DNA from: Octopus sinensis
Taxonomy: Eukaryota
Assembly: GCF_006345805.1 (NCBI RefSeq)
Contig: NW_021824283.1
Location: 1-19,189, forward strand
Direction of reading: 5' to 3'
DNA length: 19,189 nucleotides
The position numbers are program-made. Numbering within the stretch: the stretch's first letter is position 1; every line of letters starts with the position of its first letter. Shown here piece after piece: positions 16,712 through 18,524 of the stretch.

Positions 16712-18491
16712 GTATTATATATATGTATATATATGTGTATAGTATATCTATATGTGTAATATATATGTATATATATATGTATATATATAATATGTATATA
16801 TATGTGCTATATATATATATGATTATATATATGTCTATTATATATATATGTATATAATATAGGTGTTATATATATATATGTATATATATGTGTATATATA
16901 ATGTGTATATATATGTATGTATATATGCTATATATAATTTATATATATATTATATATATATATATATATACACACCACACACACACATACACACATTTAC
17001 ACAACATACACCGCACAACATACACACTTGTACAACATGAATATGTATTTGTTTTACAAGATACTTGATGCAACATTCTGTGTTGAAACAGATATTGTTA
17101 CAAGTGGGGATGGCCATATTTTTTCAATTAAACACTTGCACTAGCGTGTGTGTGCTTAATTGGCGAAACATGACCATCCCCAAGTATAACAGTATATATC
17201 ATCATCATCATCATCATCATCATTATTTAGCATATGTTGTTCATGCTGGCATGGGTTGGATGGTAAGTAGCTTGCTTCCCAACCACTTGGTTCTGGGTTC
17301 AGTCCCACTGCATGGCACCTTGGACAAGTGTCCTCTATTATAGCTTTAGGCTGACTAAAGCCTTGTTAGTGGATTTGGTAGACGGAAACTGAAAGAAGCC
17401 CGTCGTAACTGATGGAATGCCACGATAAAATGATGATTTAGTGACTGGACAATTTAGTGTCTATTTTTAGCATATAGGCATGGTCTTCTCTGTGTCATTA
17501 ATCACAGTTGTATCTTATACTATTACAAATTTCTGTGTATCAATTTTACCTAAATAGGTAAATTATATGCTGGCCACTCTCTCTCTCTTTTAATCTTTTA
17601 CTTGTTTCAGTGATTTGACAGTGGCCATGCTGGAGCACCGCCTTTAGTCGAGCAAATCGACCCCAGGACTTATTCTTTGTAAGCCTAGTATTTATTCTAT
17701 CGGTCTCTTTTGCTGAACCGCTAAGTTACAGGGACGTAAACACACCAGCATCGGTTGTCAATCAATGTTGGGGGAACAAACACAGACAAACAAACATATA
17801 CACACACATATATATATATACATATATACGACGGGCTTCTTTCAGTTTCCGTCTACCAAATCCACTCACAAGGCTTTGGTCGGCTCGAGGCTATAGTAGA
17901 AGACACTTGCCCAAGGTGCCACACAGTGGGACTGAATCCGGAACCATGTGGTTGGTTAGCAAGCTGCTTACCACACAGCCACTCCAACGCCACTGATAAA
18001 ATTTTTAATGATTTTATCCTTTAATTATATATATATATATTTATAGAATGGTTGTATACTGTCAATCTAACACGAACGTGACAGTAGGAGTGTACACCAC
18101 CGCTGTTTAGCCCTAGGAAGCATCGACGCCTCCTGATGGCTTTGACACATTTCTCCTGTGTCCTTATATACATTTACGAAGGGGAGACAAATACCCCCAG
18201 CCGCCAGGGCTGCATCTAGGGACATGTGTTTCAGGATGATTGTCCTTCGTCGGCCTAGACTAGCAGACACTGGTCAGCTGATGATATTTGCCTCGACTTC
18301 ATAATGTATATATCTAAATTTCAGTGAAGTCTATTCACTGATTATCATAATCAGAAATACTAAATTTCTAAATCTTTCATAGAGACATGTACGGTGGTGG
18401 GGCGTTCGTATTAGATTGACAGTATACAACCATTCTATTGCCCCACCACCGTACATGTCTCTATGAGAGATTTAGAAATTTAGTATTTCTG

Positions 18492-18524
<33 letters not shown>

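What the first reader, a model, noticed from the sequence alone, without database searches (positions are those of the whole stretch)
18043..18493. Retrozyme-like element: ~361-nt hammerhead monomer with its head-to-tail junction captured in an inverted fragment
Seen: read on the minus strand, 18493->18403 gives ...CGGTGGTGGGGC|AATAGAATGGTTGTATAC..., which is the END of 18043-18403 joined directly to its START. The source template was therefore circular or a tandem multimer of ~362 nt. The monomer is non-coding, carries one type I hammerhead and sits in (TA)n. Known: metazoan non-LTR retrozymes are small (roughly 170-400 nt) hammerhead-bearing repeats that give circular RNAs, and Penelope-like insertions often have an inverted 5' segment. 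Inference: this is a cephalopod retrozyme family making self-cleaved circular RNA, copied by a Penelope-type RT with a template switch. I cannot tell whether it has already been described.
Basis: partly seen in the sequence, partly recalled or inferred. Interest (0 to 1): 0.9.

Follow-up and report, generated by a model that had tools for sequence, protein, structure and literature searches.

The report
Hammerhead-bearing 362-nt retroelement copy with inverted junction fragment
A small non-coding mobile element carrying a slightly damaged self-cleaving-RNA (hammerhead) motif sits in a TA repeat next to a short inverted piece of itself, a scar that matches how Penelope-type retrotransposons insert; it is a good example of a known kind, not a new one.

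Summary
Read on the minus strand, 18404-18493 is the last 54 nt of 18043-18403 joined, through one extra A, to its first 35-36 nt (87 of 91 columns). A second copy, 60% identical (18857 to the window end), crosses the same junction in direct orientation. The template therefore had a head-to-tail period of about 362 nt and no ORF.

The minus strand carries one type-I hammerhead-like motif (18260->18214, GUC| at 18221/18220). Its helices have the canonical metazoan sizes, but core position 4 is C instead of U. Rfam scores it 14.2 bits against a threshold of 34. It is the only such motif in the 19 kb, and 8 of 2000 shuffles give one.

The same strand folds much better than shuffles (z -7.7 versus -3.9 for the antisense strand). 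The geometry of the two copies also requires that strand as the RNA template.

(TA)n flanks, two facing cDNAs and two alternative start points match published Penelope-like insertion behaviour.

Verdict: an old, probably ribozyme-impaired copy of a non-LTR retrozyme-type element mobilised by a Penelope-like enzyme. A circular RNA, ribozyme activity, family size and host species remain untested. It is a new member of a known kind.

The parts
18026..18042 (.). Left flank: (TA) run followed by TT. Taken as the target microsatellite and the priming end for the + strand cDNA.
   Evidence: Sequence context printed.
18043..18403 (-). Main copy, 361 nt, exactly one unit (362 with the junction A). The hammerhead-sense RNA strand is the window's minus strand.
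   Evidence: circular fold (MFE -127.7 kcal/mol, z -7.7, 65% paired, GC 43.4%).
18214..18260 (-). Type-I hammerhead-like motif. Helix I is 7 bp (18260-18254 with 18220-18214). The core is CCGACGA (18253-18247), with C instead of U at position 4 (18252). Helix II is 4 bp with a 6-nt loop (18246-18233). GAA is at 18232-18230. Helix III is 2 bp with loop ACAU (18229-18222). C17 is at 18221, so predicted cleavage lies between 18221 and 18220.
   Evidence: Rfam Hammerhead_1, 14.2 bits, E 0.94, model 1-45/45. Own descriptor finds this as the only locus in the window; 8 of 2000 shuffles give a hit.
18165..18312 (-). Long imperfect hairpin that extends hammerhead helix I, with the hammerhead core at its tip.
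   Evidence: strand folding: -68.2 kcal/mol, z -7.16. The antisense strand of the same stretch gives z -3.93.
18404..18493 (+). Inverted 5'-truncated fragment, 90 nt. Read on the minus strand it is unit positions 308-361 + A + 1-35/36. Its outer end, next to the right (TA)n, is at unit position 308.
   Evidence: I1, I7; 87 of 91 columns.
18439..18439 (.). Junction base (T on +, A on -) between unit end and unit start. The main copy has T, not A, at the corresponding flank position 18042.
   Evidence: alignment.
18494..18562 (.). Right flank (TA)n. Taken as the target microsatellite and the priming end for the minus-strand cDNA.
   Evidence: TRF (18492-18562, period 2, 37 copies).
18857..19189 (-). 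Copy 2, a diverged relative in direct orientation. It aligns as unit positions 306-361 then 1-242 up to 19169 and probably runs off the window end. Its left boundary lies 2 nt from the outer end of the inverted fragment. Its hammerhead region is degenerate.
   Evidence: 199 of 332 columns identical, score 109 vs shuffles 26.9 +/- 4.7 (max 44); no similarity upstream at 18730-18856; core region alignment; hairpin z -5.07.

Best explanation
18043-18493 is one insertion of an ORF-less retroelement of about 362 nt that carries a hammerhead motif. It belongs to the type published as metazoan non-LTR retrozymes, which are non-autonomous relatives of Penelope-like elements (PLEs).

Proposed mechanism (inferred): a PLE-type enzyme cut both strands of a (TA)n microsatellite. 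The + strand 3' end at 18042 primed a cDNA that runs from unit position 1 to 361. The minus-strand 3' end at 18494 primed a second cDNA that starts at unit position 308, crosses the unit end-to-start junction and stops at position 35-36. The two cDNAs were joined in the middle at 18403/18404 with 1 nt of overlap.

Both cDNAs are antisense to the hammerhead, so the template was the hammerhead-sense RNA. That template was longer than one unit head-to-tail. It was either a transcript of a tandem or a self-cleaved, religated circle.

The two cDNA start points (position 1, and positions 306-308, the latter shared with the independent copy 2) resemble the two adjacent internal initiation sites that give PLEs their 'tail'.

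In this copy the ribozyme core has C at position 4 and is probably weak or dead, so the locus is a fossil rather than a source.

Shown: the junction, the permutation, the flanks, the motif, the strand-specific fold and the absence of an ORF. Inferred: the RNA template, the PLE enzyme, priming on both strands and any ribozyme activity.
For: 1. Junction and exact one-unit copy: (87 of 91 columns).
2. Independent junction-spanning copy 2: (score 109 vs shuffle maximum 44). The spacing of two anchor blocks is 110 nt, against 108 expected for a head-to-tail join (D5 and D6).
3. Copy 2 starts at unit position 306 and the inverted fragment at 308. There is no homology upstream of copy 2 (score 21 vs shuffles 23.2 +/- 4.4).
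4. Hammerhead_1 matches full length (model 1-45) on the minus strand. My own descriptor finds this as the only locus in 19,189 nt on both strands, and 8 of 2000 dinucleotide shuffles of the unit give any hit. Helix sizes of 6-7 / 4 / 2 bp with a 4-nt loop equal the 'canonical metazoan type-I' architecture described in PMC4209133 (passages).
5. The hammerhead-sense circle has MFE -127.7 and z -7.7, against -111.9 and z -3.86 for the antisense. The hairpin arms give z -7.16 and -5.07 on the sense strand against -3.93 and -2.96 on the antisense.
6. Geometry: the outer ends at the (TA)n flanks are cDNA 5' ends only if the template is the hammerhead strand (read from the sequence).
7. Published PLE features read in the papers. 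Partial tandems, an inverted 5'-truncated copy at the 5' end, a tail and (TA)n targets: PMC8557442 (passages). Cleavage and extension of both strands, AT-rich cleavage, internal initiation at two adjacent sites and a multi-copy RNA template: PMC11167929 (main text).
8. Each of the two differences between the main copy and the inverted fragment is derived in one of them when copy 2 is used as outgroup. This is consistent with one insertion event followed by about 1% decay in each piece.
Against: - The hammerhead match is far below Rfam's gathering score (14.2 vs 34 bits; all-family E 0.94 in a 151-nt search). It is absent at gathering threshold and was not listed in the 1290-nt E<=10 search.
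- Core position 4 is C.
- The isolated 47-nt motif prefers another fold (-11.1 vs -7.6 kcal/mol for the hammerhead fold).
- My descriptor was written after I had seen the motif.
- Pair conservation between the two copies is inconclusive: 32 of 58 pairs kept against 19-30 in slid controls.
- No tandem array and no PLE ORF are in the window.
- The distance between the two start points (54-56 nt) exceeds the published 30-40 bp tail.
- Only two copies and one fragment were available, and no genome of the host could be searched.
Confidence: 0.6

Rival explanations
1. The template was specifically a covalently closed 362-nt circular RNA (the full retrozyme cycle). The exact one-unit length arises because the reverse transcriptase stops when, after one lap, it meets the start of its own cDNA.
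For: The main copy is 361 of 362 nt and is bounded exactly by the junction. It is contiguous across the predicted cleavage site at 18221/18220, so the template was either uncleaved or religated. The RNA is strongly self-paired, like published retrozyme circles (PMC7229834 passages).
Against: A linear transcript that starts at unit position 1 (hammerhead sense) and reads about 55 nt or more into the next unit explains the same three copies. PLE in vitro data point to unprocessed multi-copy RNA as the substrate, and ribozyme mutants did not affect insertion (PMC11167929). The published circle model predicts tandem cDNAs, not single units. This copy's core is damaged.
Confidence: 0.3
2. It is a solo pseudo-LTR or a 5'-truncated remnant of an autonomous Penelope-like element, not a separate ORF-less family.
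For: PLE insertions are mostly 5'-truncated and carry hammerheads in their pLTRs. The insertion scars here are PLE-like.
Against: The junction joins the unit end to the unit start with a period of 362 nt, so the template had no ORF between repeats. PLE hammerheads are described as minimal variants that lack helix III, whereas this one has the canonical layout. No RT or GIY-YIG match appears in 62 of 76 ORFs scanned; the other 14 lie in TA/TG repeats and were not scanned.
Confidence: 0.1
3. The origin is at the DNA level: a remnant of a 362-bp satellite array, or a reintegrated extrachromosomal DNA circle, rearranged by an inversion or fold-back. The hammerhead likeness would be inherited or incidental.
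For: Hammerhead repeats were first known as satellite DNA. A linearised DNA circle would also give an exact one-unit permuted copy.
Against: No simple inversion of a tandem yields a full unit plus an inverted end+start piece on one side (my reasoning). The outer end is shared with the independent copy 2. The (TA)n flanks and the fact that both pieces are antisense to the structured, hammerhead-bearing strand are unexplained by this model.
Confidence: 0.07
4. The inverted fragment is an assembly or sequencing fold-back artefact.
For: Complex tandem/inverted PLE insertions are known to trouble assemblies (PMC8557442).
Against: The fragment differs from the main copy at 2 of 90 positions and carries a junction base that the main copy does not have. 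It is short and bounded by a long (TA)n.
Confidence: 0.03

Closest known systems
Metazoan non-LTR retrozymes (Cervera & de la Pena, NAR 2020, PMC7229834; e.g. the mussel Mytilus galloprovincialis and the axolotl, units of about 330-353 nt)
   Same: Unit of about 362 nt within the published 150-450 bp range, GC 43%, no ORF/LTR/PBS/PPT, a type-I hammerhead layout with a short helix III, highly self-paired RNA and a head-to-tail template.
   Different: Here there is a single unit plus an inverted fragment rather than a tandem array. The ribozyme core has C at position 4 and scores below Rfam's threshold. No expression or circle data exist. Cephalopods are not mentioned in the main texts I searched; the supplements could not be seen.
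Penelope-like elements: pLTR hammerheads and insertion architecture (PMC8557442, PMC4209133, PMC11167929)
   Same: AT-rich/(TA)n target, partial-tandem template, an inverted 5'-truncated copy abutting the 5' end, alternative start points tens of nt apart, and a hammerhead on the sense strand.
   Different: No RT/GIY-YIG ORF, and a period of 362 nt instead of kilobases. The hammerhead has a helix III and canonical helix sizes, unlike the minimal PLE variants. The offset between start points is 54-56 nt, against a published tail of 30-40 bp.
Newt/salamander satellite 2 hammerhead repeats (about 330 bp)
   Same: Similar unit size, a type-I hammerhead with a weak helix III, and helix I extended by an internally looped stem (passages).
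   Different: Those occur in very large tandem arrays and are experimentally self-cleaving. In this copy the helix III loop (ACAU) is not palindromic in register. An in-register double hammerhead would carry two central C.A mismatches (my reading of the sequence).
L1 'twin priming' 5' inversions
   Same: Two cDNAs primed from the two target strands and joined in the middle, giving an inverted 5' segment.
   Different: A different enzyme family. Here the second cDNA overlaps the first by 54 nt and crosses a repeat junction.

Membership tests
Metazoan non-LTR retrozyme | Repeat unit of roughly 150-450 bp (RNAs of about 170-400 nt) | tested here: met
   361-nt copy; 362-nt period from the junction. 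The range is taken from PMC7229834 passages.
Metazoan non-LTR retrozyme | A type-I hammerhead ribozyme in each unit | tested here: inconclusive
   There is one full-length Hammerhead_1-like motif on the minus strand, at 14.2 bits against a gathering score of 34, with C at core position 4. Copy 2 has two core mismatches and a 2-nt shorter loop 3. Chance estimate: 8 of 2000 shuffles.
Metazoan non-LTR retrozyme | Head-to-tail tandem arrangement in the genome (dimers to multimers) | tested here: inconclusive
   TRF finds no array with a period near 362 in the window. Two pieces cross a head-to-tail junction, so the template was tandem or circular. Copy 2 runs off the window end.
Metazoan non-LTR retrozyme | Low GC (<45-50%), no ORF, no LTR/PBS/PPT | tested here: met
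   GC 43.4%. The longest stop-free run in a dimer is 68 aa. There is no Pfam hit for the ORF overlapping the element (protein 41). PBS and PPT were not searched for specifically.
Metazoan non-LTR retrozyme | Predicted highly self-paired RNA | tested here: met
   Circular MFE -127.7 kcal/mol, z -7.7, 65% paired. The result is strand-specific: the antisense strand gives z -3.86.
Metazoan non-LTR retrozyme | Expressed as self-cleaved linear and circular RNA | not testable with these tools
   No RNA data and no host genome or transcriptome collection were available.
Penelope-like element (autonomous) | ORF with a telomerase-like RT and a GIY-YIG endonuclease | tested here: not met
   0 of 62 scanned ORFs of 70 aa or more hit RT or GIY-YIG. 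14 of the 76 listed ORFs lie in TA/TG repeats and were left out. The period of the template (362 nt) leaves no room for an ORF.
Penelope-like insertion signature | Partial tandem plus an inverted 5'-truncated copy adjacent to the 5' end, in an AT-rich or microsatellite target | tested here: met
   compared with PMC8557442 and PMC11167929.
Penelope-like insertion signature | Optional 30-40 bp 'tail' that corresponds to two adjacent internal RT start sites | tested here: inconclusive
   Three cDNA starts were seen: unit position 1 (main copy), 308 (inverted fragment) and 306 (copy 2). That is two sites 54-56 nt apart. This is longer than published, and n = 3.
Rfam RF00163 Hammerhead_1 | Score at or above the curated gathering threshold (34 bits) | tested here: not met
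   14.2 bits; no hit at gathering.
Hammerhead ribozyme (functional) | Conserved core C3 U4 G5 A6 N7 G8 A9 / G12 A13 A14 / A15.1-U16.1 / H17 (recalled numbering; core pattern as) | tested here: not met
   11 of 12 specified positions are canonical; position 4 is C (18252). Self-cleavage was not tested.

The most novel reading that the evidence does not exclude
This locus would be a genomic footprint of target-primed reverse transcription on a covalently closed 362-nt hammerhead circRNA by a Penelope-like enzyme. One cDNA stops after exactly one lap. A second cDNA, primed from the other target strand at a second internal start site, crosses the ligation-independent junction. If so, it would give locus-level evidence for two things. 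First, that retrozyme circles really are retrotransposition templates. Second, that PLEs are their mobilisers, in a clade (apparently cephalopods) where no retrozyme has been described in the papers I could search.
Probability: 0.25. Interest if true: 0.6.

Novelty: new member of a known kind. Interest (0 to 1): 0.38.

Why it matters
Reviews of metazoan retrozymes state that the repeats show no conserved motif revealing which autonomous element moves them (PMC7761336). The PLE link rests on co-occurrence and, recently, on sequence relatedness of pLTRs (bioRxiv 10.64898/2026.07.22.740005).

A retrozyme-type unit that carries the full PLE insertion scar gives an independent, structural line of evidence for that link. 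The scar consists of the (TA)n target, two facing cDNAs and recurrent internal start sites. The same features could be counted genome-wide.

It would also extend the family to another molluscan lineage. The individual locus is an old, probably inactive copy and has no obvious effect on the host.

Tried and rejected
- Rfam at gathering threshold on the whole window: 0 matches.
- Rfam at E<=10 on 17900-19189: 20 weak matches, none a hammerhead. These were mostly TA-run or hairpin look-alikes and were discarded.
- Search for further copies in the window: none beyond copy 2. blastn gave only short TA-rich matches. 300-nt tiles over 1-17,700 gave a best score of 44, equal to the shuffle maximum.
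- Upstream extension of copy 2 (18730-18856): none.
- Pair covariation between the main copy and copy 2 on a MAFFT alignment: 19 same, 6 one-sided, 7 compensatory and 26 broken out of 58 pairs. The 32 kept compare with 19-30 in slid controls, so this is inconclusive at 60% identity.
- Double-hammerhead idea: the helix III segment self-pairs (-5.8 kcal/mol, 6 bp), but out of register with 15.1/16.1. I drew no conclusion.
- ARAGORN on the window: 0 tRNA genes.
- Pfam below-threshold hits were treated as noise for this question: Endonuc_subdom 17.8 bits on 3086-3310, and zf-C2H2 19 bits on 12689-12955.
- Lunse et al. 2017 (PMC5785218) is not held, so core variants of PLE hammerheads were not checked there.
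- The bacterial/archaeal genome collection, the phage/plasmid/E. coli collections and the protein searches were not used. They cannot hold relatives of a non-coding animal repeat.

Full report
**1. What is in the sequence**

The + strand 18043-18403 (361 nt, called U here) is followed directly by 90 nt (18404-18493). Read on the minus strand, these 90 nt are U308-361, one extra A (window 18439), then U1-35/36.
- The repeat finder reports the two inverted pairs separately: 54 nt at 98% and 36 nt at 97%.
- A global alignment of the joined tail+head against the fragment matches 87 of 91 columns.
- Base 18403 is shared by both pieces.
- The whole 451-nt block lies between a TA run (18026-18040) and a 69-71-nt (TA)n (18492-18562).
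- The window has no N.

**2. A second, independent copy**

18857-19169 (+), probably continuing to the window end at 19189, aligns with U306-361 followed by U1-242.
- Identity is 199 of 332 columns. The local score is 109, against 26.9 +/- 4.7 (maximum 44) for 200 shuffles.
- It crosses the same end-to-start junction, this time in direct orientation.
- Two conserved anchor blocks lie 110 nt apart. A head-to-tail join predicts 108 nt (D5 and D6).
- Its left boundary is real: 18730-18856 has no similarity to U on either strand (score 21 and 15 against shuffles of about 23 +/- 4).
- That boundary (U306) lies 2 nt from the outer end of the inverted fragment (U308).
- No other relative exists in the first 17.7 kb.

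Whichever permutation is taken as the 'true' linear unit, one of the copies contains the junction of the other. The template must therefore have been longer than one unit head-to-tail. With a period of 362 nt, there was no room for an ORF between repeats.

**3. The hammerhead**

Rfam finds nothing at gathering thresholds. It finds no hammerhead in a 1290-nt E<=10 search.

In a 151-nt search, Hammerhead_1 (RF00163) matches 18260->18214 on the minus strand over the whole model (1-45). The score is 14.2 bits against a gathering score of 34, with E 0.94 corrected for all 4227 families.

The motif is built as follows:
- Helix I: 7 bp, extended after a 2-nt bulge.
- Core: CCGACGA.
- Helix II: 4 bp with a 6-nt loop.
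- GAA.
- Helix III: 2 bp with loop ACAU.

These sizes are what PMC4209133 describes as the canonical metazoan type-I layout: helix I 6 bp, helix II 4 bp, helix III 1-2 bp with a 2-4-nt loop (passages).

One of 12 specified core positions is wrong: position 4 is C (18252) instead of U.

A descriptor of my own allowed up to 1 core mismatch and required helices of at least 4/3/2 bp. It finds this locus, reported in two alternative registers, and no other in 19,189 nt on both strands. It hits 8 of 2000 dinucleotide shuffles of the unit, none of them with an intact core. I wrote the descriptor after seeing the motif, so this figure is somewhat generous.

In copy 2 the homologous stretch reads CUAAUGG...GAA-AC-UU-GUC. 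That is two core mismatches and a loop too short for a hairpin. Position 4 is U there, and every core position is canonical in at least one of the two copies.

The isolated 47-nt motif prefers a non-hammerhead fold (-11.1 against -7.6 kcal/mol).

My reading is that the motif descends from a real type-I hammerhead, and that this copy is probably weak or inactive. That U4 belongs to the uridine turn is recalled; the turn itself is mentioned in PMC6155905.

**4. RNA structure is strand-specific**

| Stretch | Hammerhead-sense strand | Antisense strand |
|---|---|---|
| 362-nt circle | -127.7 kcal/mol; shuffles -85.8 +/- 5.4; z -7.7; 65% paired | -111.9 kcal/mol; z -3.86 |
| Main-copy arm around the hammerhead, 156 nt | z -7.16 | z -3.93 |
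| Homologous stretch of copy 2, 160 nt | z -5.07 | z -2.96 |

- Hammerhead helix I continues into a long imperfect hairpin (18165-18312), with the core at its tip.
- The homologous stretch of copy 2 also folds into a long hairpin despite 60% identity.
- A pair-by-pair covariation count on the two-sequence alignment was inconclusive.
- 'Highly self-paired' small RNAs are a stated property of retrozyme circles (PMC7229834; PMC7761336).

**5. Geometry and mechanism (inference)**

Both pieces have an outer end at a (TA)n flank, and they meet in the middle. If the outer ends are where target 3'-OH ends primed cDNA, then both cDNAs are U-sense. In that case the RNA template was the minus-strand sequence. 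That is the strand with the hammerhead and the stronger fold. The opposite polarity would need priming from the middle outward.

This matches what is published for Penelope-like elements:
- Partial tandems, an inverted 5'-truncated copy next to the 5' end, a 30-40-bp tail and (TA)n targets (PMC8557442, passages).
- For a purified PLE protein in vitro: cleavage and extension of both target strands, preference for AT-rich DNA, and initiation of reverse transcription at two adjacent internal sites that explain the tail.
- The same paper proposes a multi-copy RNA as template. Ribozyme mutants did not affect insertion in its assays (PMC11167929, main text read).

Here the three cDNA starts fall at two places: U1, and U306-308. 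These are 54-56 nt apart. That is tail-like, but longer than published.

Each of the two substitutions between the main copy and the fragment is derived in one of them when judged against copy 2. This fits one event followed by about 1% decay per piece, and it argues against an assembly artefact.

**6. Circle or tandem transcript?**

The main copy is exactly one unit and is continuous across the predicted cleavage site. Two models fit:
- A circle on which the enzyme stops after one lap.
- A linear transcript that begins at the position complementary to U361 and reads at least about 55 nt into the next unit.

The sequence cannot separate them. I put the circle at about 0.25-0.3.

**7. No autonomous partner nearby**

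One search listed 76 stop-to-stop ORFs of 70 aa or more. I scanned 62 of them against Pfam (21, 41). The 14 that lie in the TA and TG arrays at 865-1833 and 11466-11905 were left out.
- None hit a reverse transcriptase or a GIY-YIG domain.
- Only two below-cutoff matches appeared: Endonuc_subdom at 17.8 bits and zf-C2H2 at 19 bits.
- The unit itself has no stop-free run longer than 68 aa, even when read as a dimer.

**8. What is known**

- Non-LTR retrozymes are tandem units of 150-450 bp with type-I hammerheads and low GC. They are expressed as circRNAs of 170-400 nt. They were described in a coral, a mussel and the axolotl, with PLEs proposed as mobilisers (PMC7229834, passages; PMC7761336, passages).
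- A 2026 preprint relates them to PLE pLTRs in vertebrates (abstract and passages).
- The giant squid genome paper lists 235 Hammerhead_1 hits (passage).
- An Octopus vulgaris repeat annotation lists Penelope-like elements but contains neither 'hammerhead' nor 'retrozyme'.

Full-text searches gave no description of such an element:

| Search terms | Papers found |
|---|---|
| 'hammerhead ribozyme' + 'octopus' | 5 |
| 'hammerhead' + 'cephalopod' | 129, mostly about sharks; only the best 20 were listed and seen |
| 'retrozyme' + 'cephalopod' | 2 |
| 'retrozyme' + 'octopus' | 3 |

They may list species, cephalopods included.

**9. Limits**

- No collection of animal genomes, no Dfam/Repbase and no RNA data were available. 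Copy number, tandem arrays, the family consensus, the PLE partner and expression are all unchecked.
- I could not verify that the host is a cephalopod. The flanking repeats look to me, from memory only, like octopus SINE-type repeats.

**10. Verdict**

The feature is real and well read by the first stage. It is a fossil copy of a retrozyme-type, hammerhead-derived, ORF-less element with a textbook Penelope-type insertion scar. It is a new member of a known kind and of moderate interest.

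Noticed in passing
window 18564-18729, and 17586-17682: A palindromic (fold-back, MITE-like) repeat: arms 18564-17 and 18676-729 are 54 nt and 87% complementary, with a 58-nt spacer. A half-copy of the same family lies at 17586-17682 (D3, I2-I4). Rfam gives only far-sub-threshold miRNA-like hits (MIR825 29.9 bits vs 160; mir-1261 25.6 vs 91).
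   Followed up: partly
window 17830-17990: A stretch upstream of the element that I recall as resembling an abundant octopus SINE. ARAGORN finds no tRNA gene anywhere in the window. No tool here could test the resemblance or the host species.
   Followed up: no
window 5659-6124 and 14009-14282: A 65-nt tandem repeat (7.2 copies, 95% matches) and a 138-nt repeat (2 copies, 83%). By eye their consensus units share a motif, so they may belong to one minisatellite family.
   Followed up: no
window 865-1833, 11466-11905, 16490-16970: Very long dinucleotide arrays: about 970 nt of (TA)n, about 370 nt of (TG)n next to (TA)n, and about 300-480 nt of TA/TGTA. GC drops to 16.5% in 1001-2000. The region is rich in the AT microsatellites that PLE-type enzymes are reported to target.
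   Followed up: no
window 12689-12955 (-): An 89-aa open frame with a below-cutoff C2H2 zinc-finger match (19 bits vs 25.2, E 0.0019). It may be a decayed zinc-finger exon or may be chance.
   Followed up: no
window 18392-18403 with 18095-18105 (minus-strand RNA): In the circular fold, the C/A-rich tract GCCCCACCACCG lies immediately 3' of the inferred cDNA start at unit position 1. It pairs with a distant GCGGUGGUG. For the anole PLE, reverse transcription is reported to start in an AC-rich stem-loop. The parallel is suggestive only.
   Followed up: no
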